NCBI GenBank assembly: GCA_963701295.1
Contig: OY969585.1
Coordinates: 2,368,001-2,432,000 of the forward strand
DNA length: 64,000 bases
Origin: Ignavibacteriota bacterium
GTDB lineage: Bacteria; Bacteroidota; Ignavibacteria; UBA10030
Reading direction: 5' to 3'
The notes beneath the pieces are model-generated. The model worked only from the letters and a program-made list of their open reading frames with translations, was not told the DNA's origin and did not search any database. The translations under genes and the position numbers were made by a program. Below are positions 5,373 to 62,895 of this stretch, in pieces; within the stretch, counting starts at the first letter, position 1; each line of letters opens with the position of its first letter.

Positions 5373-5530
5373 GCCTAACCAGAAACTCAAACTGACGGTT
5401 GCCAGCTGGGTACGTTAAACATGGCGAACATAGGTTTCAGTTTTAATAATAACTTTTTCAGCATGAACTCATTTCGTTGGGTGCATGTTGCAAATTTGCA
5501 ATGCCGCAGCTTAGCGCCAATCCGTTAGCC
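5373..5530 (+). repeat. attC site
   Basis: GCCTAAC..CTCAAACTGACG...CGCAGCTTAG..GTTAGCC. Confidence 0.9.
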
Positions 5531-5552
5531 CGCAGGCATAAATTATAGTCAA

Positions 5553-6656
5553 ATGAAAATGAATCATCCTATAAAAATTCTACTTTTCCTCATCATTACC
5601 TTCCTAGAATTAGGATTTGGTACGACAAGTAAACAAAATATTTCAAAATCACTCGATAAAATAAATAAGCTTAGTCATATCCTTCATACAAATCTTGACA
5701 GTATATTTACAAAAGAATATGTAAAGGCTTTTGGACGAGCGGACGCATCCAATTTATTAAGTCGTGTCGTCGTTTCTTCAAAGAAAGCTCAATATCGGTC
5801 GAATACTAAGAAAGATTATTTTATCCAATTCGATGATATAGTAAATTCAAGAGTTATCTATTTTGGTTTTATTTATCGTTCAAATCAATATGTCTTTTAT
5901 TATCGGCTATGCCTTGAGGGGAAAAATATTACCATTAATTCAATCAACAGAACACTAAAACTGGACTTCGAACAAGAGATTGAAAAAGAAATTGACAAAT
6001 ATCAAACTAAATACGCCAATGATACTCTAGATGACCTTGCCAATGATGCTATATGTACGATAAGGCCGGTCAATTTCACACATAACTCTGGCAACCATTC
6101 TGATTTTCTTGTGTATGTAGAATTCTTTGGAAGCGACATTAGCATGTCTTTTGGATTTGTTTTAGAAAACGGTCAATATTATCCTCGATTCAAATACGTT
6201 GGCGCAGGGAAATCTGCAGTGACCCCTAAGCTTATCGATATTGACTCAGATGGCAAAATGGAGCTTCTTCTAATTGCAGACGAGGCAGGCAATCAAAGTG
6301 GTAAGGACTTTATTACGATCTGGCGATACCAGAGAAAAAGGTTTGAAGAAATATTCAGAGAAGGGCTTTCTGAAGGTTACATGTATTGTCCATATTTCTA
6401 TCATAATAGTTATTCATTTATAAAAAATCCTATCAATAATAAGATGCTCGATATATCATTTCACGTCAGCACAGATACAGAGTTTTTCGATGTGAAGGAG
6501 CCGATTTCCTTTTATAAGAGATATGGAAATTTTTTACCTAAAAAGGATTCTACGATCTTTGTTTTTAATGGCACGAAATATATTCCCAAGAAGAAGTTTT
6601 ATGATTATCGTGCTTTTTTCAGACGATGGTGTAAAGAAAATAATTTTAGAGAATAA
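5553..6656 (+). CDS. Hypothetical secreted protein (cassette)
   Basis: Signal-like N-terminus, DIDSDGKMEL loop; bounded by GTTAGCCCGC/GCGGGCTAAC. Confidence 0.75.
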   Translation: MKMNHPIKILLFLIITFLELGFGTTSKQNISKSLDKINKLSHILHTNLDSIFTKEYVKAFGRADASNLLSRVVVSSKKAQYRSNTKKDYFIQFDDIVNSRVIYFGFIYRSNQYVFYYRLCLEGKNITINSINRTLKLDFEQEIEKEIDKYQTKYANDTLDDLANDAICTIRPVNFTHNSGNHSDFLVYVEFFGSDISMSFGFVLENGQYYPRFKYVGAGKSAVTPKLIDIDSDGKMELLLIADEAGNQSGKDFITIWRYQRKRFEEIFREGLSEGYMYCPYFYHNSYSFIKNPINNKMLDISFHVSTDTEFFDVKEPISFYKRYGNFLPKKDSTIFVFNGTKYIPKKKFYDYRAFFRRWCKENNFRE

Positions 6657-6664
6657 TGCCAGCG

Positions 6665-6784
6665 GGCTAACCAGGCGCTCAAGCTCGACCTGACTGGTAT
6701 CGGGAGATAAATGAGCAGGCGAAGGAGAATTGAATTGTAATTAACCTATTTTAAGTGCTACAGCTTAGTTGCCAACCGTTAGGC
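6665..6784 (+). repeat. attC site
   Basis: GGCTAAC..CTCAAGCT...CAGCTTAG..GTTAGGC. Confidence 0.85.
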
Positions 6785-6833
6785 GCAATAACTGTATCAA
6801 AAAAAATACATATAGTTATTTATATTTTTATAA

Positions 6834-7247
6834 ATGAAGAAGGCAATTCTTATGGATATAATGGAGAATAAAGAAACGTTATATAAATGTATAGAAATAT
6901 ATAACAAATGTACCCTAGAATGGGTTGATACTTTTTACTCAAAAGATTTAATTTGGAAAGAGTTACCAACAACAACTTTTCCAAAAGGAAGATCAGGAGG
7001 GTTTAAAGAATTTCGTGAAGCAGCCGAACAACGATTAAGGCTATTCCCTAAAAATTCTTTAACTGTAGTAAAATGTGTTGCAGAAAACGATTATGTTGTA
7101 TCTGAACAAGACTTGAAAGGGACACTTGCTATTTCAGTAGGAAACTATAAAGCAGGTGATGAAAGCAGATTAAAGATTGTTACATTTTTTAAATTAAAAA
7201 ATAATCAAATTATTGAACACACTGACTTTGTTGTTTCAATTCAATAA
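6834..7247 (+). CDS. NTF2/SnoaL-like protein
   Basis: Size and pattern (FYSKDLIW...FFKLKNNQIIEHTDF). Confidence 0.7.
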   Translation: MKKAILMDIMENKETLYKCIEIYNKCTLEWVDTFYSKDLIWKELPTTTFPKGRSGGFKEFREAAEQRLRLFPKNSLTVVKCVAENDYVVSEQDLKGTLAISVGNYKAGDESRLKIVTFFKLKNNQIIEHTDFVVSIQ

Positions 7248-9951: not shown

Positions 9952-10328
9952 TGCGAAGACAACGATTGTCATTTTCAGTGCATGGGGATACCTGGCATTA
10001 CGCAATTTGTAAGTGATACTGCAAAACTTATAATAACAGACATGAAAGCATCAACTCGAATGATCGCGGGAACATTTTCATTCCATATAGTGTCTGCCTG
10101 GTCTGACTCAGTTTTAGTTTTCTCCGATGCCGAGAAATCGTCAGCTTTTGCTATAGGAGCATATAAATTTCAGCCATTGCAATAGTTTACAACAAAAGAG
10201 GGATCGCAGGTCTAATGCTTAATCAAAAGAATAAAGCGCTGATGGATTTTAAAAGAGCGATAGAATTGGGATATCAGATCTCTTCATGAGACTCTGGATT
10301 TGTGTGGGCAAAAGTGAGTATATGGTCA

Positions 10329-10508
10329 TTTTGCCATCTCGCCAGATGCCTTAGGGGTTGTGACAGTATGGCGAAATGTCGAATATGGGACCCGCTTTTA
10401 AGCCTTACAGGAGTTTCAGGAGTATCTTCTGCTTCGATATACCAGAGGAATCAATGTCGAGGGGATGGCGAAAGTGGTTTTGCTATAATTTTTTTGGAAA
10501 TTATTTTC
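10329..10508. repeat. Unclassified ~180-bp repeat, copy 1
   Basis: ~64-bp near-identical core plus GAAAGTGGTTTTGCTATAATTTT shared with 19569-19756. Confidence 0.8.
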
Positions 10509-10936
10509 ATTCCCTATGGCGGATCGTTTTCTAAATTTTTGTTTGTATTTAGAAAAAGGTCATTATATGCTCCATTTATAGGCTATTGCGCAGTCTTTGC
10601 AAGCAACAAAAATATCTCTTGCATTTGAAATTGAAAGTATTTACTTTTTTGCCAGCTGTTTACGAACGCCGGCTTGTCCGCCATAATTAGCTTATCTCCT
10701 GATAGCGGATGGACAATCCCGAAAACAGCTCCGACGCCGACGAATTCCTGATAGAAATTTTCTGAATACACACTGATCTGCCGCATGATGGTTTACGGTG
10801 GACGAATGTGTTCCAGCAATGTTCCTTAAAGGGGAAAATCTTTTCGTGCCAATGCTTTTTCGTTATTTTGAGGAATACGCCAAAGAGGTTAGACAACTTC
10901 GCGAAATTATGACGAACCAATATAGGAGGGAATTTT

Positions 10937-13295: not shown

Positions 13296-13407
13296 CGCTA
13301 TTGGAAAGTAGATATTGTAGGTTTTAGTTAGATGTATTGGGTTTTGGGGACTTGTGGGAGTGGTCACTCAATGTATCAATCCTTTTTGTTCCCATTGTTA
13401 TTAATGT

Positions 13408-13433
13408 GGCAGCTTAGCCGCTATCCGTTAGGC
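13408..13433 (+). repeat. attC right half
   Basis: GGCAGCTTAG..GTTAGGC. Confidence 0.75.
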
Positions 13434-14021: not shown

Positions 14022-14145
14022 ACCTAACCATTTTAAAAAGAAAAGAGTCAAGTACATAACATTCTCCCGATGCGTCCCACAGAGTGGGATTCAAGTGTTA
14101 ACAACTGAACATAACCGGCAAAGAGCGATGATATAAGCCGCAACT
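14022..14145 (-). mobile_element. attC R'' followed by an orphan IS110 end
   Basis: ACCTAAC+CATTTTAAAAAGAAAAGAGTCAAG...CTCCCGATGCG, as in the full elements. Confidence 0.8.
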
Positions 14146-14203
14146 TCGTTAAAGTTACATTCTTTTTGAGTCAATGCGGATGAAGGATTACGAAAAAGTG
14201 TTC

Positions 14204-14232
14204 TTGACTTCAATTCTATCATTTTGTATACT
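14204..14232 (+). promoter_or_regulatory. Sigma70-like promoter
   Basis: TTGACT-N17-TATACT. Confidence 0.65.
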
Positions 14233-14301
14233 TCGCGGGTCGAAATGACACTGCAATAAAGCAGTTGCTCAATCATTTTACTAACCACAGGAGGATGTAC
14301 T

Positions 14302-14670
14302 ATGAAACACATCGCAATTATCGCTGCATGCCGCGTTCTCTTTTGCGCCTTCGGCGTAGTCGCACACAGCCAGGAAATCCAGGTGGGAACATTCAGCATC
14401 ACGCCTACTATAGAAGGCTATTCGCTGAACAACGGAAGCGGTGATCGAACCGTATCGGTTGAAGTGGCTTTCCCGAAGCCGTTCGAAGTAAAACCGGATA
14501 TCGTATTGAATCTCAACTCTATCGATGTAGACAAGACGGCTAATCTGCGCATCTCGATGAAACCTGTTTCGATCTCGCGCGACGGATTTACGATCCAAGT
14601 GAAAACGTGGGCAGATTCGAAGATCAATCTAGTCGGCGGCACATGGATTGCAGTTGCTCAGAAAAAGTAA
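14302..14670 (+). CDS. Secreted H-type lectin domain protein
   Basis: Signal peptide; VAFPKPFEVKP, NLRI, GFTIQVKTWADS. Confidence 0.8.
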   Translation: MKHIAIIAACRVLFCAFGVVAHSQEIQVGTFSITPTIEGYSLNNGSGDRTVSVEVAFPKPFEVKPDIVLNLNSIDVDKTANLRISMKPVSISRDGFTIQVKTWADSKINLVGGTWIAVAQKK

Positions 14671-14749
14671 CGCAGCATCTGTTTCTTTGAATGTAGAGGG
14701 TTTGGGTCGCTTGGCATCAGCGACCCATTTTTTTTATCTACCGACAATT

Positions 14750-14859
14750 CATGGCGAGCTTAGGTTTAGTACAGAATTGAAAGTTATCAGTATGAACTTG
14801 TTTCGTTGGGTGCATTTTGCAAATTATCAGCGCTGCAGCTTAACGCCAGTTCGTTAGGG
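14750..14859 (+). repeat. attC, 5'-truncated
   Basis: CATGGCGAGC...ATGAACTTGTTTCGTT...GCAGCTTAA..GTTAGGG. Confidence 0.8.
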
Positions 14860-16582: not shown

Positions 16583-16737
16583 GTATAACCGGCTGTTTAA
16601 GTTAACCGGAAAAACGTGAGTGCATTAAGAATGGTGCGAATATGTTTCGTATATTTTGAAGGCTATAATCTTGAACTCGTTTCGTTATCAGCAACTTGAT
16701 AATTATCAACGCCGCAGCTTAGCGCCGGTCGTTAGGC
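16583..16737 (+). repeat. attC site (left arm degenerate)
   Basis: GTATAAC...CGCAGCTTAG..GTTAGGC. Confidence 0.8.
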
Positions 16738-16974: not shown

Positions 16975-17114
16975 ACCTAACCATTTTAAAAAGGAAAGAG
17001 TCAAGTAAATAGTAATCTCCCGATGCGTTCCGCAATAGTGATGTGAATGAACTTATTTCGTTATGTGTATATTGAAAATCATCGGCGCCGCAGCTTAGCG
17101 CCGTTCCGTTAGAA
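16975..17114 (+). repeat. attC fused to an orphan IS110 end
   Basis: ACCTAAC + IS end (16982-~17045) + attC right half GTTAGAA. Confidence 0.85.
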
Positions 17115-18344: not shown

Positions 18345-18655
18345 CCCTAACCAGGCGCTCAAGCTGACGGTTGCCAGCTGGCAGTAACCCAATCAGAAAA
18401 ATTCTAATCACGTTCATCACATTTAAGAGGAGATGATAATGCACAATTTCTTTGAACCAATCCTAATTCTTATCATTCTTTTAATCGTTGTTGGTCCAAT
18501 CGGATTTATGCGCTATAGACTTTTCATACGCTTTATCCAAGTACAAGAGTCAATCGCACAGAGTTTGCAAAAACTTGTTGAGAATCAAACGAAAGCCAAA
18601 TAACCTCTATTTAGGTTTCAAGTATAATGCGGCAGCTTAGCGCCGGTCCTTAGGC
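18345..18655 (+). repeat. attC halves separated by a small ORF
   Basis: CCCTAAC..CTCAAGCTGACG ... GCAGCTTAG..CTTAGGC. Confidence 0.75.
18439..18603 (+). CDS. 54-aa single-TM protein (not in ORF track)
   Basis: GAGGAG RBS; MHNFFEPILILIILLIVVGPIGFMRYRLF...KAK*. Confidence 0.6.
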   Translation: MHNFFEPILILIILLIVVGPIGFMRYRLFIRFIQVQESIAQSLQKLVENQTKAK

Positions 18656-19521: not shown

Positions 19522-19565
19522 CCATTTTAAAAAGGAATAATATTCTCCTGATGGGTTCCGCAAGG
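19516..19565 (-). mobile_element. attC R'' followed by an orphan IS110 end
   Basis: ACCTAAC+CATTTTAAAAAGGAA. Confidence 0.75.
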
Positions 19566-19568
19566 TCG

Positions 19569-19756
19569 TTTTGCCATCTCGCCAGATGCCTTTAGGGTTG
19601 TGACAGTATGGCGAAATGTCGAATATGGGACCCAAGAGCCTCAATCCCGTGACTCCGGAGGGATCGTTATGGTTGCTTCTACTTCGAGATAGGAGAGAAA
19701 TCAATCTAAACCGAAAAGGAAAGTGGTTTTGCTATAATTTTTTCTGGAATAATTTT
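19569..19756. repeat. Unclassified ~180-bp repeat, copy 2
   Basis: Homologous to 10329-10508. Confidence 0.8.
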
Positions 19757-20023
19757 AGTGTCTCTCAGGGCTTTTTCTTGACTCTTTTAAAATGATTATG
19801 TAACGTCTTGCATACTTAGCAGTTGGGAAGAAGTAGAAGCGGAGACGTATGGTTCCCCTAGCTTGTTCCTTCAGCTTTGGCGCCAAAACGTATCCTGATA
19901 AGAGTATAGAGAAGTATACGAATGAAATTAGCTTTGTCAACCCAGCTAATTGTTAGGTCAAATTATGCAGTCTAACATACGAAAAACTCATGTTAGACTG
20001 TAATATGCAATCCAATCTTCCCA

Positions 20024-20230: not shown

Positions 20231-20373
20231 AAAAGGCAATTGAATCAGTTACATAAATCTATAGATAATGCATAGAAAATCGTTTTCTACTATATTGAAA
20301 CAAAACTGAAAATGATACAATTAATTATTCGTATTTGAAATACGAATTGTATTAGTATAAGACGAGGTGTAAT

Positions 20374-22599: not shown

Positions 22600-22609
22600 A
22601 ACAATTGCA

Positions 22610-47584: not shown

Positions 47585-47608
47585 AGCCCTTACAAGGAGA
47601 AAAAACCA

Positions 47609-48358
47609 ATGAAAAAAGCAATCGTTGTCATTTTATTGTTGTCATGTCAGACACTTTATACTCAGCAATCTGAACAAAAAACCAATCAGATTTGTGTGCA
47701 AGGTAGTGTTGAATTGAAAGAAATGGCAGATCAGGCAACTTTAAGTTTTTCCGTTAAGGGAGTCGGTGCAAATCTCCGCCAAGCTGTAGAGAATGCTGAC
47801 AAGAATACAAAAGCTATTACAGATAAACTTATGTCATTGGGTATCAAAGAAAAAGATATTTCAACATCATCGTTCTATAGTGGTGAGAATAAAGGCGACA
47901 AGGCATTTCTATCCTCAAGTAGGGATTATCAGGCACATATAACGACCGTGATTAAAGTTGATAGTTTAAAATTATTGCAACCTATTCTGTTTGCAATAAG
48001 CGAATCTGATGTGCAAAACATATCTCAAATCATATTTTCTTTAAAAGATGAAGTTGGTTTTCGGCGAAGAGCGCGGATTGAAGCTGCTCTCAAAGCAAAA
48101 GAGAAAGCAGAGGACATGACGAAAGCTTTAAATATCACACTGGGAAGAGTGCTTTCTATCGATGAAGTGCAACCAACTCAATCTCGCCCAACATCTTTGT
48201 TGTCAAGAAGCGGAGTACCAAATCCATTTAATCCTATTTCATTCAACACGGTTGTTGGTCTTCAAGCCGGAGGTGTTGATGAGAGCATCGGGTCTGGTTT
48301 CTTTGCTCAGACAATTTCTGTCACGAGTCAGGTTTATGTAATATTTGAAATTAAATAA
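47609..48358 (+). CDS. SIMPL (DUF541) domain protein
   Basis: VQG..ADQATLSFSV; AKEKAEDM..LGRVLSIDE. Confidence 0.88.
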   Translation: MKKAIVVILLLSCQTLYTQQSEQKTNQICVQGSVELKEMADQATLSFSVKGVGANLRQAVENADKNTKAITDKLMSLGIKEKDISTSSFYSGENKGDKAFLSSSRDYQAHITTVIKVDSLKLLQPILFAISESDVQNISQIIFSLKDEVGFRRRARIEAALKAKEKAEDMTKALNITLGRVLSIDEVQPTQSRPTSLLSRSGVPNPFNPISFNTVVGLQAGGVDESIGSGFFAQTISVTSQVYVIFEIK

Positions 48359-48364
48359 GAGCCG

Positions 48365-48523
48365 TCCTAACCAGGCGCTCAAGTTGACCGAATGAGCATG
48401 AGTGCATTAAGCATGGCGAGCATAGGTCTTGGTGTCTAATAATAAACTTTTCAGCATGAACTTGTTTCGTTTTGTGTATTTTGAAAGTTTTCAACATGGA
48501 AGCTTAGCCGCCATCCGTTAGGC
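48365..48523 (+). repeat. attC site
   Basis: TCCTAAC...GTTAGGC. Confidence 0.9.
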
Positions 48524-48551
48524 GCATTTTAAAATTATAGGAGAATGCTTA

Positions 48552-48929
48552 ATGAGCGAAAACGACAATTTTAAATATCTGGAACTATATATGAAGCAAA
48601 GCGAGTTCTTCTGGAAATATCAACAGACCGTTTCATTAGTTGAATTGGCTGCATTTGCAGGATGGTACAAACTATTCAAAGGAAGTGATTACTTTTTGGC
48701 AATGGGGGCACTAATATTGGGAAGTATTGTCTTATTCGTTCTATTTTTAATAATCTTACGAGCTGCACAATATCTAAATGCATTAAGGAAATCAGCGTTA
48801 AAAGCACTTCCATCTGATCTTCAACAACCTTTGCTTCATATCAAGAGTTCTCATATTGGTATTGCTATTCCAATAATTTGTATTGTTTTTAACATTGCTT
48901 TAATTCTTTATCAATTAAAATGCACCTAA
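48552..48929 (+). CDS. Small membrane protein (cassette)
   Basis: RBS; stop codon in R''; complementary cassette ends. Confidence 0.75.
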   Translation: MSENDNFKYLELYMKQSEFFWKYQQTVSLVELAAFAGWYKLFKGSDYFLAMGALILGSIVLFVLFLIILRAAQYLNALRKSALKALPSDLQQPLLHIKSSHIGIAIPIICIVFNIALILYQLKCT

Positions 48930-48978
48930 CCGCGCTCAAGCTGACAGAATGAGCCGAGGTATGTTAAGCATGGCTGGT
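48924..48978 (+). repeat. attC left half
   Basis: ACCTAAC-CGCGCTCAAGCTGAC...GTTAAGCATGGCTGG. Confidence 0.8.
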
Positions 48979-49136
48979 TCTCATGAATAGCAGGTGTGGC
49001 GTCATCATATTTATGAATTTTCCCAATTGCTGTTTAAGTGATGCCAGAAGTTATCGGCTCATTTTTTCAACATGGAAATAGTTGTTTCTTTATAAATTCA
49101 TATACATATACTTTCAATAATGAACATTTAAAAATC

Positions 49137-52184: not shown

Positions 52185-52227
52185 TGAAAATCCATATGTC
52201 GGGGACTCAATTCCCTCCCTGTCCACT
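52185..52227 (+). repeat. attR: degenerate tRNA-Phe 3' half
   Basis: Matches 1336-1378 with 3 mismatches. Confidence 0.88.
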
Positions 52228-52765: not shown

Positions 52766-55402
52766 ATGAAAACCAATAAAAAGAATTCAACAACTGTCTT
52801 AAGCAGATGGACGCGCTTGTCCCGAATGATTCGGGGATTTCTTGAAGTCCCGTTACATGCGGGACTGATATTTGCTTTTATAGCGCCAGTCATTGCTAAA
52901 TCTCAAACTTACTATACAATCAACGAAAATTCATCACCCGTATTTTCTACACTTATCCCAGATGAAGCCTATGTCATAAAGGATAATGTAAATTACAAAC
53001 TCTATTATGCTGGGAATGACTTTACATCAATTAATCTCGCTCAATCACCTGACGGCATAACGTGGACTCCATATAATAGCGGAAATCCTATAATATCAGA
53101 TGCACAATATCATTCAGACGTAAAATACTATAGTACAGGATTCCCAGGAGCAAATAGCGGTACAAATCCAAGCTCATTGACGATGAACTATCGTATATGG
53201 TATCAAGGGTTAAACCAGAATAGCGTAGAAGGATGGAGATATGCTGAATCGCCGGATGGAATAAACTGGTATAATCACATACCCGTTTCCCAATTCGGAG
53301 CACCAGTATATAGTTCCGCCACAGGAGTAACCTATGGAATAGCTGATGTAATCTATACATCGGGAGCATCCAACACAGGAACAGACTGGACATTCAGAAT
53401 ATATGCAAACGTCCAATGGGAACCTGGTCAATACGGTGGAAAGGAACTCGTAGTCATAGCTTTTTCAACAAATGGATATGACTGGACTGGCTATGATCCA
53501 ACATTGGCAGGTTATGCAACACCAGTATTTGCAGGAACTCTAGACACAAGTCGGTTTGACTGCGACCACATAGGATGGTTCAAGGTCATAAAAAACAGTC
53601 CGATAGACTGGCAAGCGTTCTACTCCGGCGGGAAAGGGTCGACGTACCAGGCGTTGAATGGAATAGGCTACGCAACATCGACCGATGGCATAAACTGGAC
53701 ACACAGGCAAACACTCATCACAACAAATGACCCAGTGGCATGGAGAAAACAGAGCGTATGGATGCCATCAGTGGTAAAGTCTGGAAACAACTACGAGCTA
53801 TTTTTCCTCGGATCAGCAGATGTAAGTGACGGAAGTTGGATATGGTGGAAACTCGGAAGAGCTATCTTGACACCCGTTGCTGACCCTTTTGCAGGAATCA
53901 ATTTTGCAGAATATCCCAGCAATCCTTTATTTGGCGGAGATACAGAAGGAGTGGATCGCGCTTATCAAGCATATGTAATAAAAATAGGTGCAGTGTACAA
54001 TATGTGGTACGGGGATCATATTAATGCTAGATATGTCAGTAGTGCATATCCTGATTTCCATGACGTAACATTTCCTGGAACTAAAATCACTGTGCCAAAT
54101 GCAACTCAGCCTTACAAGTTCACAGTATATTATAATTCTGCTGGATGGACTCTTGGAGGAACCAGTTATTCTCAAAAATTAGTCGCCTATTACACTGATA
54201 ATGCAGACAACTTTTCTACAAATCCACAAGTCGCAGTCTCTGATGATGGAATAAATTGGACATATGTAGGGCGGACGAGCGGTGTGATTACCGGCCCACC
54301 TGCTGAGGTTTCAACCGTTTATAGATTATCTGTATTATATGAAGGAAATAATATTTGGAAAGGATATGGCGATCAAGGACAGGCATGGATCCAATATTAT
54401 ACTTCAACCGACGGGATGGCTTGGACAGTACAAGCATGGGACATATTAAATGATCGTAATCCTAGTCTATTACAGCCTTGGGAAATCGGTCCTGGGCCAC
54501 AATATCCTGGAGAAATAAGTCCTTATGTTTTCAAAGTGAATAATACTTATGTGATGACTTATAGCTCTGGCAAAACAAACAACAATCAAGGAATAGGCAT
54601 TGCATATTCTATTGATGGAATAAATTTTACCAAGTCAAGTACAAATCCAATATTTAGTATAGACGATGGCATCGCATGGAAAACTGTTAGAAATTACAAC
54701 GGCTACATAATGCTTGATGCCGGATTGTGGAGAATGTATTTTCAAGGAACAAATGCTGCTGGATTTTATGCTATTGGTATGGCAACTCCAGATGTACCTT
54801 TACCGGTGGAACAGGTATCGTTTACAGCCACAGTGGTAAGCAATGCTGCAACGCTGACATGGCAGACTGCCACGGAAGTCAATAACTATGGCTTTGATGT
54901 TGAACGTCGGTTGGTCAATAGTCAATCGTCAACACTCAATAGTTGGGGAAAGATCGGATTTGTAAAAGGAAGTGGAACGAGTAACATTGCGCATTCATAC
55001 AGCTATACAGATGTGAGTGTTTCGTCGGGAACGTATGCCTATAGGTTAAAGCAAATCGATAACAATGGGACGTATAAGTATTCGAGCGAAGCGGAAGTAA
55101 CGGTTTCGGTGCCGAAAGTATTTGCGCTGAATCAGAACTATCCTAACCCGTTCAACCCGTCGACGACAATCGAATATCAGTTACCAGGAACAGGGACACG
55201 ATTTAATGTGTCCTTAAAAGTGTATGATGTCATTGGGAGGGAGGTTTCAAATCTTGTGAATGAACAGCAGGAACCGGGATATTACCAAAAGACATTTGCT
55301 GCAAGTCGATATGCCAGCGGAATGTATATTTATCGCCTTGTTGCAACAGACGAGCAGAATAAACAGCATATATATCAGAAGAAAATGGTGCTCTTGCGCT
55401 AA
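52766..55402 (+). CDS. Tandem five-bladed propeller (GH32/43/130-like) protein with T9SS CTD
   Basis: SPDGITW/STDGINW repeats, NPIF; PLPVE linker and CTD. Confidence 0.78.
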   Translation: MKTNKKNSTTVLSRWTRLSRMIRGFLEVPLHAGLIFAFIAPVIAKSQTYYTINENSSPVFSTLIPDEAYVIKDNVNYKLYYAGNDFTSINLAQSPDGITWTPYNSGNPIISDAQYHSDVKYYSTGFPGANSGTNPSSLTMNYRIWYQGLNQNSVEGWRYAESPDGINWYNHIPVSQFGAPVYSSATGVTYGIADVIYTSGASNTGTDWTFRIYANVQWEPGQYGGKELVVIAFSTNGYDWTGYDPTLAGYATPVFAGTLDTSRFDCDHIGWFKVIKNSPIDWQAFYSGGKGSTYQALNGIGYATSTDGINWTHRQTLITTNDPVAWRKQSVWMPSVVKSGNNYELFFLGSADVSDGSWIWWKLGRAILTPVADPFAGINFAEYPSNPLFGGDTEGVDRAYQAYVIKIGAVYNMWYGDHINARYVSSAYPDFHDVTFPGTKITVPNATQPYKFTVYYNSAGWTLGGTSYSQKLVAYYTDNADNFSTNPQVAVSDDGINWTYVGRTSGVITGPPAEVSTVYRLSVLYEGNNIWKGYGDQGQAWIQYYTSTDGMAWTVQAWDILNDRNPSLLQPWEIGPGPQYPGEISPYVFKVNNTYVMTYSSGKTNNNQGIGIAYSIDGINFTKSSTNPIFSIDDGIAWKTVRNYNGYIMLDAGLWRMYFQGTNAAGFYAIGMATPDVPLPVEQVSFTATVVSNAATLTWQTATEVNNYGFDVERRLVNSQSSTLNSWGKIGFVKGSGTSNIAHSYSYTDVSVSSGTYAYRLKQIDNNGTYKYSSEAEVTVSVPKVFALNQNYPNPFNPSTTIEYQLPGTGTRFNVSLKVYDVIGREVSNLVNEQQEPGYYQKTFAASRYASGMYIYRLVATDEQNKQHIYQKKMVLLR

Positions 55403-55600: not shown

Positions 55601-55705
55601 TTGTTATTAAAAAACAAATATCGTAGATTTTGAGTAAATATATTGGCTTTGACGAATTCGGAGAGGGGTCGCTCAATGTGTTTGTCCTTTTTGTTCCCAT
55701 AGTTT

Positions 55706-55738
55706 TCAGTGCCGCAGCTTAGCGCCCGTCTGTTAGGC
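55706..55738 (+). repeat. attC right half
   Basis: CGCAGCTTAG..GTTAGGC. Confidence 0.8.
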
Positions 55739-55768
55739 GGTGCAATAGAAATAAGGTTGCCATGATTA

Positions 55769-56488
55769 GTGGATAGTATTATTGCGATAATTCACACTGT
55801 TTCACAATTCCAGAGGTGCAACATGATGAATACTTATAGTAAACGGTTATGTCTGATGCTCTCCACTGTATTTGTGTTCTTCCTCAGTGGTTGCGCTACA
55901 TCGGGCTATGTTTCTGAAGAACCCGAGGCAAATACAAATGTAGTCGTTCCTGCCTGGGCACCCCCCTACCAAGATATTCATCTTGTCAGATACTACTACC
56001 TGCCCGACATAGAAGTGTACTATGATGTCTGGAACCAGGAGTTCGTTTATCTTCAAGATGGAAGTTGGATGTTTACGTCATCTTTCCCGCCAATCTATAC
56101 AGGATTCGATTTATACAACTGCTTTGTCGTAGTGCTGGACTACCATGTGTACGAACCCTGGATGCATTATCATTATTATGTTTCCCATTATCCACGTTAT
56201 TACTATCATTCAGTTTACAATGTCACCGATACACATGACCTCAGAGGTTTTAATGAAAACAAGGAAAGCGAAATCCGACTTAAACAGGAAGAAAAGATAA
56301 AGCTCAACGAAGCATCGAATAATAGACCTGAACATGAAAAAGTTCTACCCCTTAATCCAGAACTAAAAAAATCTGAATTCAAACGACCACCACAACGAAT
56401 GAAGTATTATGGACAGGATGTTGGCAAACCCGTCAAAGTTGAAAAACAAATGATGAAGCCACATGAAAATATTCAGAAGAATAAATGA
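55769..56488 (+). CDS. Hypothetical lipoprotein (cassette; true start probably ~55823)
   Basis: LSGC lipobox; RYYYLPDIEVYYD. Confidence 0.75.
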   Translation: MDSIIAIIHTVSQFQRCNMMNTYSKRLCLMLSTVFVFFLSGCATSGYVSEEPEANTNVVVPAWAPPYQDIHLVRYYYLPDIEVYYDVWNQEFVYLQDGSWMFTSSFPPIYTGFDLYNCFVVVLDYHVYEPWMHYHYYVSHYPRYYYHSVYNVTDTHDLRGFNENKESEIRLKQEEKIKLNEASNNRPEHEKVLPLNPELKKSEFKRPPQRMKYYGQDVGKPVKVEKQMMKPHENIQKNK

Positions 56489-56644
56489 TGATGGTGTTTG
56501 CTTGGTAAATCTGAAAGGATGGATATGCCTCTATACTGTAAACCAATGGTCCAATTCGCTACTCTATTCTCGAACAATTAGACAAAGGTGACTTCAATCG
56601 CGAACGTACATTGTTAAAAGTCGTTGGTAATAAATAATTGCATC

Positions 56645-56800
56645 GCCTAACCATGCGCTCAAGCTGACAGAATGAGCGTAAGTACATTTTACATTGCGTG
56701 CAGAGATTTAGTGCAGATTTAAAAGTGAAGTGAATGAACTTGGTTCGTGTAGTACATTTTGAAAGTATTCGTTGAGTCAACTAACCACGTTCCGATAGCC
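56645..56800 (+). repeat. attC (right arm degenerate)
   Basis: GCCTAAC..CTCAAGCTGAC...GATAGCC. Confidence 0.8.
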
Positions 56801-56831
56801 AACGCAAAGGAATATATCAAGGACAAGTAAA

Positions 56832-57236
56832 ATGGAAGACTCTCAACAACAGGTTCATGAAGTGTTGTCAGCAATAAACCAATCATGGCGAACCAATACG
56901 CCTCTTACCATGTCACAGCATTTGCACCCAAATATTATCATGAAATTTCCTGGATTCTCCGGTGAAGTAGTGGGACGTGACGCACTCCTCGCAAGTTTTG
57001 TTGAATTCTGTACCAATGCTCGAGTCCTTGAATATCAAGAGAACAACGAACAAATTAGCGTGATTGGAGATTGTGCCGTAGCGAGTTTTCAATTCGAGAT
57101 GATGTATGAAAGAACAAAGTATCGGGAACGATCAAAGGGACGAGACCTTTGGGTCTTTCAATGTATTTCTGATAAGTGGGTTGCAGTGTGGAGAACAATG
57201 ATGGAGTTAGAAGAATTACGAGAGAACCGTAAATAA
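56832..57236 (+). CDS. NTF2/DUF4440-like protein
   Basis: GRDA...GDCAVA...GRDLWVF...KWVAVWR. Confidence 0.8.
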   Translation: MEDSQQQVHEVLSAINQSWRTNTPLTMSQHLHPNIIMKFPGFSGEVVGRDALLASFVEFCTNARVLEYQENNEQISVIGDCAVASFQFEMMYERTKYRERSKGRDLWVFQCISDKWVAVWRTMMELEELRENRK

Positions 57237-57245
57237 TAATGTGCT

Positions 57246-57279
57246 GCTTAACTGACGGCTTAGCTGCATTCCGCTAGAG
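57246..57279 (+). repeat. Collapsed attC remnant
   Basis: GCTTAAC-TGACG-GCTTAG..CCGCTAGAG. Confidence 0.5.
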
Positions 57280-57371
57280 CACATGCAATTACATATGGAA
57301 TAATTACATACCGTCGAAACATCATTCCCTGGAATCTTTAACATCTTCCTATTTAATCTAAGGAGGTAGAA

Positions 57372-60300
57372 ATGAAGCGCTTAGTTTTTGTCTTTTCATT
57401 ATTCCTTGTTTCAGTTGTATCGTTTGCGAGTTTGAAACAGGGGTACTATAGATCTCCAGCTATTCATGGAGACAAAATAGTTTTCACGGCTGAAGGTGAT
57501 CTTTGGATGATCAGTACTAATGGTGGTATGGCAACGAGAATTACATCAAGTCATGGTACCGAATCACATGCGGTGATTTCACCTGATGGGTCACAGATTG
57601 CATTCTCTGCGCAATACGAAGGACCTACGGAAATTTACACTATGTCAATCGATGGAGGCGTCCCCAAGCGCTTGACATACGAAGGTCAGAGTGCAACAAT
57701 GATCGGATGGAGAGCAGATGGGAAAATAATCTACAGCACAGGGCATTATTCTACCCTGCCGAACGTTCAGCTGATGATTATCGACCCGAAAACTGGAGAG
57801 AAGAATCTAGTCCCTTTATCCCAGGCGAGCGATGGAGTATTTGATACGAGTGGAGACACGCTTTTCTTCACCCGACTTCCGTTCCAGGGCAGTCACACAA
57901 AAAGATATCAAGGAGGAACTGCGCAAAATATTTGGCGGTATGTCAAAGGCGATCAGGAGGCAGTTTCTCTGACAAGTGATTATCCTGGTACAAATAAGAA
58001 TCCTATGCTATGGAACAAGCGCGTGTATTTTCTCAGCGACCGAGATGGTACAATGAACATCTGGTCGATGAACAAAGACGGGAAAAATTTACGGCAAGAA
58101 ACATTCCATAAAGGATTCGATGCCGCATCGGCATCGCTTGACAACGGTAAAGTTGTCTATCAATGCGGTGCAGATATTTATTTATATGATATTACTTTGA
58201 AGTCAGACAATATAGTTCAGATTTCTCTATCTTCGGATTTTGATCAAGAAAGGACACAATGGGTCAAGAAACCAATGGACTATCTTACATCGGTTCATAT
58301 TTCTCCAGATGGCGATAGAGTTGTTCTCACAGCGCGCGGACAGGTTTTTATTGCACCAGTCAGTGATGGACGGTTTGTGGAACTGACACGGGAATCAGGA
58401 GTGAGATATCGAAATGCAAAATTCACTTACGAAGGGAAATCAATCATATTACAATCTGAACAAACGGGTGAAGTTGAGTTTTGGGAATATCCTGCTAACG
58501 GTATCGGGAAAGGGAGGCAGCTTACGAATGATGGGAAGGGTTTCAGAATGGATGGTATTCCTTCTCCTGATGGAAAATTAATTGCTTACACCGATAAAGA
58601 TAACCGGCTTCTTCTTTATGACTTAAACTCAAAAAAGGCAAAAATCATAGCCACATCGCAGTACGGAAGTTTCGAAGATTTGTGCTGGGCACCGGATGGT
58701 AAGTGGCTTGCATTCGTCTCGCCTGCTACCAACAGATTCTATCAGATTGTTATTTACAACATCTCTGATGAAAAGGTAACGTTATTGACCGATGATCGAA
58801 CAGACAGTTACCACCCGGTATGGAGTCCTGATGGAAAGTGGATGTATTTCTTGTCGGACAGAAATTTTCAATCTTCGGTTGAAAGTCCGTGGGGACCTCG
58901 GGAACCTGAACCATTCTTTGCGAATACGACAAAGATTTACGCAATCGCGCTCGTTAAGGATATTAGGTTTCCGTTTAGTCCTCCTGATGAGCTGCATTCC
59001 TCTTCCAAAACTTCTGATGAATCAAAAGGAAAATCTGATGATACGAAGGGAAAAGATTCCGAATCAAAGGAAAAGTCAAAAAGTGTAGAAGTGAAAATTG
59101 ATCTTGACGGAATACAAACAAGGATTTATCAGGTTCCGGTTGCAGCCGGAGATTATTCAAACCTCACTATGAACGATAAGATGCTCTTCGTAACTGAGAC
59201 CCCTCTAGCGGCAGAACGCAAAACAAAACTCGATGCTATTGAGATCATGAACAAAGATGTCTCTGTAAAATCGATCGTGGAAGATATTAAAAGTTATGAA
59301 CTTTCTGCAGATGGGAAGAAGATAATGGTGAGGAAGGGAGACGGCATTAATGTCATCGATGCATCCTCATCTCCGGTGACCGATTTCTCGAAAAACGCTA
59401 TCAACCTTAGCAAATGGACATTTTCATTTGACCCGCGTGAAGAATGGCGGCAAATGTTCATCGAAGCGTGGCGGCTTGAGCGCGACTTTTTCTATGACCC
59501 TGGTATGCAAGGTGTAGATTATGAAAAAACTCTGGTAAGATTTTTACCGTTAATTGATAGAGTAAGAGATAGAGATGAGTTGAATGACCTAATCGGTCAG
59601 ATTGTCGGCGAACTCTCAGCGTTGCATATTTTCGTCGTGGGTGGCGATGTAAGGAAACAGGAACTTCAAGTATCAGTTGGTTCACTTGGTGCGGAACTCC
59701 TTCATGATGATAAAAACGGTGGTTATAAAATCAATCAAATTTACAAATCCGATCCCGATTATCTCGAAGATATTTCACCGCTCGCAAGGACAGGATCCAA
59801 TATCAATGAAGGAGATATAATTCTCTCGATCAATGGAGTTTCAATTGATTCGGTTGCTTCGCCGAATGTACTCCTTGAGAACCAGGTTGGTCAGCAGGTG
59901 CTTCTGCATTTAAAGTCCGGTTCAACAGGAAAAGAATTTGATGCTGTCGTTGTTCCTATTTCACAGGAAGCCGCATTCAGCCTCCGGTACTATGAATGGG
60001 AATACACAAGAAGGCTTATCGTTGAAAAGGAAAGCGACAACCAGATTGGATATGTTCATCTTCGCGCTATGGGCGGTGGAAATTATACTGAATGGACAAA
60101 AGAATTTTATCCTGTTTTTGATCGGCAAGGCTTAATAATCGATGTGCGTCACAATAACGGCGGCAACATCGATAGTTGGATACTTGAAAAACTTCTTCGA
60201 AAAGCTTGGATGTATTGGAAAGACCGCGTCGGAGTGCCTACCTGGAATATGCAATATGCTTTTCGAGGTCATCTTGTCGTACTATGTGATCAAAATACAG

Positions 60301-60653
60301 CATCGGATGGTGAAGCATTCACCGAAGGTTTTAAGCGCCTCGGACTCGGCAAGGTAATAGGAATGAGAACGTGGGGCGGTGAGATTTGGTTGTCATTCGA
60401 CAATTGGCTGCGGGATAAAGGAATTGCTTCAGCCGCAGAATATGGAGTTTATGGTCCCGAAGGAAAATGGCTCATCGAAGGTCATGGGGTTGATCCGGAT
60501 ATCGTGGTTGATGATACTCCCCATCAAACATTTAGCGGACAAGATACCCAGCTTGAGGCGGCAATAAATTATTTGAGACAGGAAATTAAAGACCATCCTA
60601 TTCAAGTGCCTCTTCCTCCTGCATATCCAAATAAAGCTATGGATTATAAATGA
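57372..60653 (+). CDS. Tricorn protease (S41, PDZ)
   Basis: PD40 repeats; GELSALH; DVRHNNGG; ASDGE; RTWGG. Confidence 0.95.
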   Translation: MKRLVFVFSLFLVSVVSFASLKQGYYRSPAIHGDKIVFTAEGDLWMISTNGGMATRITSSHGTESHAVISPDGSQIAFSAQYEGPTEIYTMSIDGGVPKRLTYEGQSATMIGWRADGKIIYSTGHYSTLPNVQLMIIDPKTGEKNLVPLSQASDGVFDTSGDTLFFTRLPFQGSHTKRYQGGTAQNIWRYVKGDQEAVSLTSDYPGTNKNPMLWNKRVYFLSDRDGTMNIWSMNKDGKNLRQETFHKGFDAASASLDNGKVVYQCGADIYLYDITLKSDNIVQISLSSDFDQERTQWVKKPMDYLTSVHISPDGDRVVLTARGQVFIAPVSDGRFVELTRESGVRYRNAKFTYEGKSIILQSEQTGEVEFWEYPANGIGKGRQLTNDGKGFRMDGIPSPDGKLIAYTDKDNRLLLYDLNSKKAKIIATSQYGSFEDLCWAPDGKWLAFVSPATNRFYQIVIYNISDEKVTLLTDDRTDSYHPVWSPDGKWMYFLSDRNFQSSVESPWGPREPEPFFANTTKIYAIALVKDIRFPFSPPDELHSSSKTSDESKGKSDDTKGKDSESKEKSKSVEVKIDLDGIQTRIYQVPVAAGDYSNLTMNDKMLFVTETPLAAERKTKLDAIEIMNKDVSVKSIVEDIKSYELSADGKKIMVRKGDGINVIDASSSPVTDFSKNAINLSKWTFSFDPREEWRQMFIEAWRLERDFFYDPGMQGVDYEKTLVRFLPLIDRVRDRDELNDLIGQIVGELSALHIFVVGGDVRKQELQVSVGSLGAELLHDDKNGGYKINQIYKSDPDYLEDISPLARTGSNINEGDIILSINGVSIDSVASPNVLLENQVGQQVLLHLKSGSTGKEFDAVVVPISQEAAFSLRYYEWEYTRRLIVEKESDNQIGYVHLRAMGGGNYTEWTKEFYPVFDRQGLIIDVRHNNGGNIDSWILEKLLRKAWMYWKDRVGVPTWNMQYAFRGHLVVLCDQNTASDGEAFTEGFKRLGLGKVIGMRTWGGEIWLSFDNWLRDKGIASAAEYGVYGPEGKWLIEGHGVDPDIVVDDTPHQTFSGQDTQLEAAINYLRQEIKDHPIQVPLPPAYPNKAMDYK

Positions 60654-60836
60654 AAACGATGGAACTCATTTCATGATAAAAATTTTTAAACTTCCATTAA
60701 GCCTAGTTTATATTTTTAAGTGGACTTTTTGATCTAACAAGGAGAGAATCTTTTTTAGTAACAAGTTTATGGAGTATATGGCAAATAGTGTATGCATTGG
60801 TTAAGGATGCAATATAGAACTAAATAATATTCTGCC

Positions 60837-60990
60837 GCCCAACTAAACACTCAAGCTGACCATATGAACTAGATATGTTAAGCATGGCGAGCATAGGTCT
60901 TATGCAATCTGAAAAATTCTACATGAACCTGTTTCGTTTTGTGTATATCAAAAGTTTTCAGTGGCGCAGCTTAGGCGCCATTCGTTAGGA
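60837..60990 (+). repeat. attC site
   Basis: GCCCAAC..CTCAAGCTGAC...CGCAGCTTAG..GTTAGGA. Confidence 0.85.
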
Positions 60991-61037
60991 ACGCATTGCC
61001 ACCATATAGACTTGAATACATTTTCATGGAGGTCACA

Positions 61038-62714
61038 ATGAAAAAACGACTTATCCTTTTCTGTTTATTCGTTCTTCTGCTTCCAGACTTTCTTTATACT
61101 CAAGCGAGGAACGGGATGGTTGTTTCGGCTGAGTCGAGCGCTTCTCAAGTTGGGATCGAAATATTAAAGAATGGTGGAAATGCAGTCGATGCTGCAGTTG
61201 CTGTCGGTTTTGCGCTTGCCGTTACCTATCCACAAGCAGGAAATATTGGCGGCGGTGGATTTATGGTTATCCGCTTGGCAGACGGGCGGATAACAACGAT
61301 TGATTACCGTGAAAAAGCGCCATTAAAAGCATGGAAGGATATGTTTCTTGATGATAAAGGGAACTATCTCCCCGAAAAAAGTCAAGAAGGATACTTGTCG
61401 TGCGGTGTTCCTGGCTCAGTCGCAGGATTGCTTCTGGCACTTGAACGATATGGAACGTTGAACAGAGATAAAATACTGCAACCTGCAATCGAATTAGCAG
61501 AAAAAGGAATTAAGGTGAGCGGAACATTCGCAGATGATATCAAATCGTCTCTCAGTCGCTTTACACGTTATAAATCGACTTGTCGGATTTTTCTAAAAAG
61601 CGGTAAACCGTATCGGTCGGGAGATACACTCTTTCAGCGTGACCTCGCAGCGACATTGAAACGCATTGTGTGCAATGGAAGAGATGGCTTCTACAAAGGA
61701 ACAACAGCCGATCTGATTGTTGCGGAAATGCAACGAGGTAATGGATTGATTTCGTATGATGATCTTGCTTCGTACCAAGCAATTGAAAGACCACCGGTTA
61801 TCGGCAAGTATCATGGTTATGAAATTATTTCTATGGGACCACCAAGCTCAGGTGGAATATTACTTATCCACCTGCTCAACTTATTAGAACCATACGATCT
61901 TAAGACATCAGGATTTGCATCAACGCGAACTATTGCTTTGATGGCAGAAGCGATGAAACTTGCATATGCTGATCGAGCGGAATTCTTTGGGGATATCGAT
62001 TTCTATCCGGTTCCTGTCGCAAAGCTGATTTCAAAATCATATGCTGATGAACGAAGAAAACTCATCGATTCAAGTTTAGCGAAACCAAGCAGCGCTATCT
62101 CACATGGCTCCTTTCAGCAACATGAACTTAGCGAGACGACGCATTACTCGGTGGTTGATCAATGGGGAAATGCGGTAAGTGTAACGACAACAATCAATGA
62201 TTGGTTTGGTAACAGTATCGTTGTCGATAGTGCAGGCTTTTTCCTCAACAATGAAATGGATGATTTTGCCGCAAAACCTGGTGTGCCGAATATGTTTGGT
62301 GTGACTGGAAGTGTAGCAAATGCAATCCAGCCTCAAAAGCGAATTCTTAGCAGTATGACACCGTCGATTGTTGTGAAAGATGAAAAACCATATCTCATCA
62401 TCGGTTCACCTGGAGGTCCGACTATTGTCACAACAGTTCTGCAGGTAATTCTCAATGTTATTGATCACCATATGAATATTCAGCAAGCAATTGACGCACT
62501 ACGGATTCATCACCAATGGTTGCCGGATACCCTTTGGTATGAAAAGTCGGGACTCACAGATGAGGTTGTACTGAATTTGAAACATCTTGGATTCAGCGTA
62601 ATTGAACGACACGGTTATCAAGGCAATGTTGAAGCTATTCTGATTGATCCACAAACACGATTGTATTATGGTATTGCTGATCGACGTGGATATGGAGCAG
62701 CGGTCGGATATTAA
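61038..62714 (+). CDS. ggt: Gamma-glutamyltransferase
   Basis: GGNAVDAA, DYRE, ETTHYS, NNEMDDF, SSMTP, GSPGG. Confidence 0.96.
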   Translation: MKKRLILFCLFVLLLPDFLYTQARNGMVVSAESSASQVGIEILKNGGNAVDAAVAVGFALAVTYPQAGNIGGGGFMVIRLADGRITTIDYREKAPLKAWKDMFLDDKGNYLPEKSQEGYLSCGVPGSVAGLLLALERYGTLNRDKILQPAIELAEKGIKVSGTFADDIKSSLSRFTRYKSTCRIFLKSGKPYRSGDTLFQRDLAATLKRIVCNGRDGFYKGTTADLIVAEMQRGNGLISYDDLASYQAIERPPVIGKYHGYEIISMGPPSSGGILLIHLLNLLEPYDLKTSGFASTRTIALMAEAMKLAYADRAEFFGDIDFYPVPVAKLISKSYADERRKLIDSSLAKPSSAISHGSFQQHELSETTHYSVVDQWGNAVSVTTTINDWFGNSIVVDSAGFFLNNEMDDFAAKPGVPNMFGVTGSVANAIQPQKRILSSMTPSIVVKDEKPYLIIGSPGGPTIVTTVLQVILNVIDHHMNIQQAIDALRIHHQWLPDTLWYEKSGLTDEVVLNLKHLGFSVIERHGYQGNVEAILIDPQTRLYYGIADRRGYGAAVGY

Positions 62715-62878
62715 GACTTAATTAGTTTTTAGAAACTCTACAAGTTATTGATAGTTTAACGTTCTTTTCGTAGTAATTCTGTGATTTCTGTTTTTAGTGG
62801 ATCAAAGGGAAGTTGCTCAATAAGGTCGGTACTAGCTGTATTATATTTATGATCCTAAATAGGAGTTCTTGAGACTTT

Positions 62879-62895
62879 GTCGCCATTCGTTAGGA
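62879..62895 (+). repeat. attC R' remnant
   Basis: CGCCATTCGTTAGGA, identical to 60976-60990. Confidence 0.45.

What the first reader, a model, noticed from the sequence alone, without database searches (positions are those of the whole stretch)
5373..62895. ~57-kb integron-like cassette array with ~27 attC sites and no intI in the window
Seen: repeated R''(NNNTAAC), L''(CTCAAGCTGACG), L'(CGCAGCTTAG) and R'(GTTAGGC). L'' versus L' leaves an unpaired C and A, i.e. the canonical extrahelical G and T on the bottom strand. Cassette ends are individually complementary (GTTAGCCCGC/GCGGGCTAAC; GTTAGGCGCATTTTAA/TTAAAATGCACCTAAC). All cargo genes are co-oriented. Inference: a superintegron-like or CALIN array in an Ignavibacteriota-like host, a lineage where I do not recall integrons being well characterised. 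The intI may have been deleted by IS3 or may lie elsewhere.
Basis: partly seen in the sequence, partly recalled or inferred. Interest (0 to 1): 0.8.

Follow-up and report, generated by a model that had tools for sequence, protein, structure and literature searches.

The report
Scattered integron arrays swapping secretion tails
The repeats are real gene-cassette recombination sites in a decayed, integrase-less array, one of nine arrays in this genome that are likely served by a single distant integrase, and one large secreted-enzyme gene in it is a chromosomal gene from a relative joined to a cassette's secretion-signal tail, which would be one way new cassettes get made.

Summary
The attC sites are real: about 27 sites or remnants, only 10 complete. 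It is not one clean 57-kb superintegron. It is a decayed, mosaic CALIN, mostly inside a tRNA-Phe genomic island (1336-52226), with non-cassette DNA and three attC-targeting IS1111 copies. The genome has 156 attC 3' arms in nine main arrays, seven near-identical attI sites and one intact intI, 1.13 Mb away. Intact identical cassettes occur in different intI-less arrays, which suggests service in trans. Unexpected: 23 of 105 T9SS-signal (CTD) genes end in an attC R'' box, and 11 are true cassettes, up to about 3 kb. Window 20022-22385 is 97% identical to a resident, attC-free gene of a relative. Identity stops at the NYPNPFNPST codons, where a cassette-type CTD tail plus attC takes over. A second, reciprocal swap lies at 55168. 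Tail swapping as a route to new cassettes is inferred, not shown. Integrons in Ignavibacteriae, CALINs and IS1111-attC are published. My searches found no report of attI-bearing satellite arrays or CTD cassettes. The scan earlier noted a cassette family in another array of this genome.

The parts
1304..1377 (+). tRNA-Phe(GAA); left border of the island that holds most of the array
   Evidence: core DNA upstream is 77-92% identical in relatives, DNA downstream is variable
1403..1885 (+). Truncated phage-type tyrosine integrase N-terminus (island integrase stub, not IntI)
   Evidence: Phage_int_SAM hits only; no TIGR02249 match
2079..4500 (-). Two IS3-family elements that cut off the head of the array
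   Evidence: rve and HTH_Tnp_1; 2079-3314 is 100% identical to C1:535532-536767
5373..5530 (+). attC, complete (158 nt)
6665..6784 (+). attC, complete, variant L'' (120 nt); cassette 5524-6671 has 11/12 complementary ends
10324..10544 (+). Repeated 'leader' sequence also found upstream of attI platforms at C1:2834k and 3446k
13400..13433 (+). attC 3' arm only, preceded by a ~250-nt repeated element
14022..14859 (+). R'' plus IS1111 end remnant, H-lectin gene, then the 3' part of an attC
16583..16737 (+). attC, complete but with a degenerate 5' arm
16975..17114 (+). attC with its 5' arm replaced by an IS1111 end remnant
18345..18655 (+). attC arms 311 nt apart, R' mutated (CTT)
19564..19756 (+). 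Second copy of the platform leader, after an R'' plus IS1111 end at 19516
19950..20017 (+). Degenerate attI remnant (two of the attI direct repeats), cut at or near its core site
   Evidence: attI profile E=2.8e-7; alignment with relatives' attI
20022..22385 (+). Segment from a relative's chromosome: frameshifted 3' end of malic enzyme, spacer, and a DUF362 gene up to the NYPNPFNPST codons
   Evidence: 97% to G011:C39:56532-58896, whereas the genome's own malic enzyme gene is about 80%; same borders in contigs of 4 runs
22386..22767 (+). Cassette-type T9SS CTD tail (to the stop at 22599) and complete attC 22610-22767
   Evidence: tail 74-77% to other attC-linked tails, about 50% to the G011 allele
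23217..24991 (+). Three attC sites (23217-23375 mutated core, 23950-24108 complete, 24810-24991 mutated R') with isochorismatase and DinB cassettes
26097..28307 (+). Glucoamylase-like CTD gene ending in R''; no matching 5' end (IS3 remnant upstream)
28328..29732 (-). IS1111-type IS110 element inserted in attC between R'' and L''
   Evidence: NF033542; ends
30504..30700 (+). attC, complete (197 nt)
31266..32790 (+). attC lacking R', gluconolactonase-like CTD gene, attC 5' arm only
33479..37070 (+). GH116-malectin CTD gene (1122 aa) and complete attC 36858-37070; no matching 5' end
   Evidence: the 68% homologue in G004's tRNA-Phe island has no attC
37064..40632 (+). 3.57-kb two-gene interval with 12/12 complementary ends (BNR-CTD gene and a PDC-S11-like gene)
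40636..42023 (-). IS1111-type element in attC
42242..44907 (+). 2.67-kb true cassette: GH5-CBM6-CBM9-CTD gene, ends 12/14 complementary
44911..46287 (-). IS1111-type element in attC; its non-coding end holds predicted target and donor guides
47390..48980 (+). Complete attC sites 47390-47584 and 48365-48523, then a 5' arm only at 48924
52185..52226 (+). Direct repeat of the tRNA-Phe 3' part (42 nt, 93%): right border of the island
52766..55402 (+). CTD gene about 90% identical to a G011 allele up to 55168 (NYPNPFNP), then a different tail; the G011 tail ends in a cassette-type R''
55700..62895 (+). Outside the island: attC 3' arm (55732), decayed attC (56645), complete attC 60837-60990 and an R' remnant (62889), among tricorn protease and gamma-glutamyltransferase genes

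Best explanation
The window holds a decayed, integrase-less integron cassette array inside a tRNA-Phe island; it is one of nine arrays of one attC family that are likely serviced in trans by the genome's only IntI, and at least one of its large secreted-protein genes likely gained its attC by homologous exchange at the conserved start of the T9SS sorting domain. Shown: attC anatomy and covariation; one intI; seven near-identical attI sites, six without intI; identical cassettes in different arrays; IS1111 copies all at one position in attC; two alleles whose identity with a relative ends at the NYPNPFNPST codons. Inferred: IntI folds and recombines the bottom strand as in other integrons. tRNA-targeting islands likely spread attI/promoter platforms and arrays around the chromosome. 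About 100 CTD-coding tails per genome would act as portable homology, so that a chromosomal CTD gene recombining with a CTD cassette acquires the tail and attC. A second crossover near the 5' end, or excision from the next upstream att site, would turn such a hybrid into a new large cassette.
For: attC: strand-biased motifs. The consensus bottom strand folds with extrahelical G and T. Four arm pairs covary, 77-86% Watson-Crick, for example CG 38 / AT 16 / GC 10 among 83 sites. Cassette ends are complementary at >=10/12 in 69% of 140 intervals, against 13% shuffled, maximum 22%. IntI; found in 12 of 15 genus genomes, with the attC pattern in 13 of 15. attI: seven exact-core copies. Of 27 genus hits, 6 have a full intI, 1 a partial one and 20 none, two of these with short flanks. 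One intI-less platform lies at an orthologous locus in five genomes, with different first-cassette ends. Cassettes of 442, 314 and 290 bp are 100% identical between intI-less arrays. 128 of 156 3' arms have the top strand as leading strand, the bias reported for sedentary integrons (PMC5371416). CTD: SprA is present. 23 of 105 CTD genes end in R'' and 11 have matching 5' ends. 18 of the 23 tails fall in one 23-row clade, 97/85 support, 10 label changes against 21 shuffled, with unrelated cargo. In metagenomes 22 of 33 hits follow a CTD and 15 of those 22 have a matching R'. Swaps. None of 10 other DUF362 homologues has an attC. The relative's allele, with the malic-enzyme frame intact, recurs with the same borders in 4 runs from 4 studies.
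Against: No recombination was assayed. Only 5 of 13 window sites fold into the R+L stem as minimum-energy structure, and whole-site z-scores run from -2.6 to +1.6. The window array is decayed, so it may be frozen. Identical cassettes could also move by RecA recombination or predate intI loss. Only two clean swaps were found. Four further searches gave no close allele to test, and the GH116, SGL, GH16 and YCF48 homologues (67-72%) are too distant to place a breakpoint. The proven hybrid has no complementary 5' end, so it is not a finished cassette. The second swap runs the other way: the window allele has the non-cassette tail. G011's DUF362 tail also ends in ACAATTG, so it may itself descend from a cassette. 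Tails also differ among non-cassette CTD genes, so swapping is not specific to integrons. The tail tree's bootstrap had not settled (correlation 0.87), and related sequences inflate covariation.
Confidence: 0.62

Rival explanations
1. The window is an ordinary decaying CALIN. CTD cassettes are old cassette families, and the tail swaps are dead-end by-products of recombination among repeated CTD sequences that create no new mobile cassettes.
For: Half-sites, IS damage and 8 of 18 matching ends. The proven hybrid lacks a matching 5' end and carries a frameshifted passenger fragment. Most metagenomic CTD cassettes carry related beta-propeller cargo. Tails also vary among non-cassette genes.
Against: Unrelated cargo (multicopper oxidase, Reg_prop propeller, GLUG, unknown domains) sits in the same 12-14-nt complementary frame with the same tail type. 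That is hard to explain without cargo replacement inside working cassettes.
Confidence: 0.4
2. Each attI-bearing array is a formerly complete integron that lost intI and has been frozen since; there is no service in trans.
For: The 224-kb platform is orthologous to the intI locus of two relatives, with intI gone from the start codon on. The 2465-kb platform keeps the first codons of intI. PMC4889954 names this scenario as hard to tell apart.
Against: 100% identical cassettes have different neighbours in different intI-less arrays. An orthologous intI-less platform has different first cassettes in five genomes. The attI cores stay 92-97% identical.
Confidence: 0.2
3. The repeats are REP-like or non-coding RNA repeats, not attC sites.
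For: They are long (median 159 nt, range 97-234) with weakly folding centres.
Against: The same family runs directly from attI beside intI here and in relatives. Ends are complementary cassette by cassette. No Rfam match in the window but the tRNA.
Confidence: 0.02
4. The hybrid at 20022-22385 is an assembly chimera of co-occurring strains.
For: The genome is likely a metagenome assembly, and no laid contig spans either junction.
Against: The segment differs from contigs of four runs by the same 63 letters and 9 gaps, including a frameshift in the malic-enzyme fragment, which points to an older transfer. The junction keeps the reading frame at a conserved motif.
Confidence: 0.07

Closest known systems
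CALIN elements (Cury et al. 2016, PMC4889954; Neron et al. 2022, PMC9024848)
   Same: A cluster of attC sites with no intI nearby, damaged by IS; an integron elsewhere could mobilise it. Integrons are already listed for Ignavibacteriae.
   Different: Six of the genome's arrays keep a near-identical attI, five of them without intI; the window has only a remnant. Those surveys could match only class 1-3 attI.
Sedentary chromosomal integrons of Vibrio and Xanthomonas (PMC5371416; bioRxiv 10.1101/2025.06.18.660453)
   Same: A genus-specific attC family, more than 150 sites, weak folding, and bottom strand on the leading-strand template (128 of 156).
   Different: Split over nine arrays, several beside tRNA genes or tRNA repeats. 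attC is longer (modes near 158 and 196 nt). Cassettes reach 2-3.6 kb, against a median SCI CDS of 362 bp, and carry T9SS cargo.
IS1111-attC group (ISKpn4, ISPst6; PMC11187229)
   Same: IS110-family transposase, sub-terminal inverted repeats, downstream non-coding region, fixed insertion point in attC.
   Different: New members. The predicted guide varies with the attC subtype hit: TCGCTGG with CAGC-type sites, TCGCCTGG with CAGGCGC sites.
T9SS type A C-terminal sorting domain (TIGR04183 / PF18962; PMC11285876)
   Same: Signal peptide plus C-terminal domain; SprA present in the genome.
   Different: Here the CTD-coding DNA is linked to attC and exchanged between alleles. I found no such report.

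Membership tests
Integron attC site | R'' (RYYYAAC) and R' (GTTRRRY) boxes with L''/L' inner repeats | tested here: met
   10 complete sites in the window, 120 paired sites in the genome
Integron attC site | Bottom-strand hairpin with extrahelical G and T and an unpaired central spacer | tested here: met
   consensus fold and four covarying pairs; minimum-energy structure in only 5 of 13 window sites
Integron attC site | Recombined by IntI | not testable with these tools
   indirect only: shared identical cassettes; differing first cassettes at attI
CALIN | [quoted passage not shown] | tested here: met
   nearest intI is 1.13 Mb away
Complete sedentary integron (this window) | Adjacent intI, attI and Pc | tested here: not met
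   only a degenerate internal attI at 19950-20017; met at C1:3533-3568 kb for intI and attI; Pc not tested
Integron integrase (C1:3566706) | TIGR02249 over cut-off, with RKHRHY residues | tested here: met
   453 bits against 265; residues read from the translation
Gene cassette (large CTD genes) | 5' GTT end complementary to its own R'' | tested here: inconclusive
   met for 11 of 23 in the genome, including 42242-44907; not met for 20374, 26097, 31498, 33479
IS1111-attC group | IS110 transposase, sub-terminal inverted repeats, 3' non-coding region | tested here: met
   NF033542; AAAAAGGAA/TTCCTTTTT ends
IS1111-attC group | Fixed insertion point in attC, opposite to the array | tested here: met
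   11 of 11 full copies
IS1111-attC group | RNA-guided targeting | not testable with these tools
   guides predicted from sequence only
T9SS cargo | CTD plus a T9SS in the host | tested here: inconclusive
   PF18962 in 7 window proteins and SprA present; other T9SS genes and secretion not tested

The most novel reading that the evidence does not exclude
This genus runs a distributed integron, with one integrase and many attI platforms spread by tRNA-targeting islands. It makes new giant cassettes by swapping cargo at the conserved start of the T9SS sorting domain: the CTD-attC tail is a reusable chassis that captures chromosomal secreted enzymes from relatives, and window 20022-22767 is a capture caught half-way.
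Probability: 0.35. Interest if true: 0.85.

Novelty: new variant of a known kind. Interest (0 to 1): 0.62.

Why it matters
How cassettes are first made is an open question (stated in PMC4889954 and PMC5371416), and cassette genes are usually short. Here a chromosomal gene of a relative is joined, at a defined codon motif, to a cassette tail and attC. That gives a concrete, testable route for a whole class of large cassettes, and a way for these bacteria to shuffle their secreted enzymes. The attI-bearing satellite arrays make the idea that CALINs are serviced in trans testable in one genome. The long attC sites (39 of 120 are 187-234 nt) and the uncatalogued attI suggest that standard scans under-read this lineage. 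If the swaps are dead ends, what remains is a well-documented new member of known classes.

Tried and rejected
Rfam at gathering score found only the tRNA. My first attC pattern had one N too many and missed even this genome; it was redone. The end-match score was off by one base and was recomputed. The first attI profile rested on one sequence and was rebuilt. One of 24 CTD-R'' hits (C1:790039) was dropped as a false match, and 6 of 105 tails lacking the motif were left out of the tree. The idea that IntI made the 20022 junction at the attI crossover was not accepted: the remnant aligns equally with the upstream repeats and there is no GTT. Searches for more close alleles of hybrid-looking CTD genes gave none above about 74% over the gene. 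No RNA holder was listed. The laid contigs came from relatives, so their joints at attC say nothing on excision in this strain. PADLOC matched 1 of 15 small cargo proteins, weakly. Earlier scan notes: none on relatives and none by words. Literature searches for Ignavibacteria integrons, T9SS cassettes, CTD shuffling, multiple attI and cassette genesis found no description of attI satellites or CTD cassettes. One search was swamped by unrelated words, and the library lacks most subscription papers. No supplements were read; IntegronFinder supplementary tables may list Ignavibacteriae arrays.
Full report
1. Observation. The motifs are in the window and on one strand only. Arm profiles hit 19 times (5' arm) and 20 times (3' arm). 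Reading the spacers gives about 27-28 sites or remnants. Ten are complete with intact AAC/GTT; the others have mutated cores, are split or cut by IS1111, or are half-sites. Across the genome 120 paired sites measure 97-234 nt, median 159. In the 83 with canonical spacing, four arm pairs covary and the consensus bottom strand folds with extrahelical G and T (related sequences, so not independent). Whole sites fold weakly: 5 of 13 window sites give the R+L stem as minimum-energy structure. Cassette ends are complementary at >=10/12 in 69% of 140 intervals, against 13% when shuffled. The window scores 8 of 18, against 23 of 27 and 18 of 23 in the cleanest arrays.

2. Setting. The window is C1:2368001-2432000 of a single-contig 3.64-Mb genome. 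Relatives with the same attI are titled Ignavibacteriae, Ignavibacteriota or Bacteroidota MAGs. The array follows tRNA-Phe, a phage-type integrase stub and two IS3 copies. In relatives the core gene before the tRNA is conserved and the island differs. G009's island has attC arms and an attI but shares no cassette gene with the window; several others have no attC there.

3. The system. One intact IntI lies 1.13 Mb away (TIGR02249, 453 bits), with attI and an array on the opposite strand. The genome has 156 attC 3' arms, 148 of them in nine main clusters. Seven places carry a near-identical attI core, and only one has intI. Degenerate copies lie at window 19950-20017, C1:1210437 and C1:1406895. 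Four satellites keep the intI promoter region up to the start codon. In the genus IntI occurs in 12 of 15 genomes and the attC pattern in 13 of 15. Of 27 attI hits, 6 have a full intI, 1 a partial one and 20 none. One intI-less platform is orthologous in five genomes, with different first cassettes. Cassettes of 442, 314 and 290 bp are 100% identical between intI-less arrays. I infer service in trans, a possibility already raised for CALINs (passages of PMC4889954, PMC9668308 and bioRxiv 10.1101/2025.06.18.660453). GC skew puts the origin near 1.0 Mb and the terminus near 2.7 Mb. For 128 of 156 arms the bottom strand is the leading-strand template, as in most sedentary integrons (PMC5371416, passages). 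Several arrays abut tRNA genes or tRNA fragments, so islands likely spread them.

4. IS1111. All 11 full IS110-family copies of this group sit between R'' and L'', opposite to the array, with sub-terminal repeats and a shared CCAG-type core. Three are in the window. The downstream non-coding region has two loops that match target and donor ends. The TCGCTGG variant hit CAGC-type sites in 8 of 9 copies; such sites are 28 of 109 overall, and two of the copies are one event duplicated. A TCGCCTGG variant in G012 hit CAGGCGC sites in 2 of 2. This is the known IS1111-attC kind (PMC11187229, passages).

5. CTD cassettes. Seven window proteins end in a T9SS sorting domain, and SprA is present. T9SS is thought possible in Ignavibacteriota (PMC11285876, passage). 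Of 105 CTD genes, 23 end in R'' and 11 have a matching 5' end. Eighteen of the 23 tails group in one clade of 23 rows (97/85; 10 changes against 21 shuffled; bootstrap not settled). Their cargo is unrelated: DUF362, glucoamylase, GH116, GH16, GLUG, FG-GAP, RHS repeats and propellers. In metagenomes a 19-nt end motif gave 33 loci: 22 follow a CTD, and 15 of those are true cassettes of 0.8-2.3 kb.

6. The swaps. Window 20022-22385 is 97% identical to G011:C39:56532-58896. There an intact malic enzyme gene precedes a DUF362-CTD gene with no attC. This genome's own malic enzyme gene is only about 80% identical. Identity falls from 0.93-1.0 to 0.5 just after the NYPNPFNPST codons, and the window continues with a cassette-type tail and attC. 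None of 10 other homologues has an attC. Contigs from four runs of four studies match exactly these borders, keep the malic-enzyme frame and run on in other sequence (X8 in two pieces). The window allele is therefore most likely the derived one. Gene 52766-55402 shows the reverse: about 90% to a G011 allele up to 55168, with the cassette-type end on the G011 side. Against a strong reading: the hybrid has no matching 5' end, further cases could not be resolved, and tails also vary among non-cassette genes.

7. Mechanism and verdict. The attC/CALIN identity is about 97% likely. Service in trans by the one IntI is about 75% likely. The two swaps are about 90% likely to be real. That swapping yields new mobile cassettes is about 35-45% likely. 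Integrons in Ignavibacteriae are on record (PMC9024848, passages), and attC taxon models in PMC8352920 do not mention this lineage (term search). Nine literature searches showed no account of attI satellites or CTD cassettes; I saw listings and passages only, no supplements. Verdict: a new variant of a known kind, interest 0.62.

Noticed in passing
window 13154-13435 and 55459-55740: A ~250-nt repeated element precedes two lone attC 3' arms; partial copies occur at six other genome places and in relatives. No Rfam match. It could be a long attC variant, a MITE or a structured RNA.
   Followed up: partly
window 10324-10544 and 19564-19756: A repeated leader sequence, also upstream of attI platforms at C1:2834k and 3446k and in relatives' tRNA-Phe islands; possibly an island end.
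   Followed up: partly
window 32850-32910 and 51785-51959: 3' fragments of tRNA-Met with a terminator-like hairpin on the minus strand; the same sequence ends the arrays at C1:1811k, 2819k and 3133k.
   Followed up: partly
window 39439-40506: A 355-aa gene with a weak PADLOC PDC-S11 match (E=7.5e-10), inside a 3.57-kb interval with perfectly complementary ends.
   Followed up: partly
window 18345-18655: A short ORF lies between the two arms of one attC.
   Followed up: no
window 28328-29732: This IS1111 copy has a transposase identical to the 40636 copy but a different right end, so it is likely recombinant.
   Followed up: partly
window 15739-16572: 94% identical to C1:1045309-1046142 beside a lone attC arm; the gene is broken in the window.
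   Followed up: no
G000:C1:1653630-1667933: Tandem non-cassette CTD genes of different lengths share near-identical 3' tails (97-98% over about 550 nt).
   Followed up: partly
L081, L082, L087, L097 (attI platforms): An ATTCCC...GGGAAT palindrome stands where intI would start in several intI-less platforms.
   Followed up: no
G000:C1:225000-261500: The only large array oriented against the replication bias; GC skew is flat there.
   Followed up: no
L154, L155: CTD cassettes sit in first position behind attI-like variants in metagenomic contigs.
   Followed up: no
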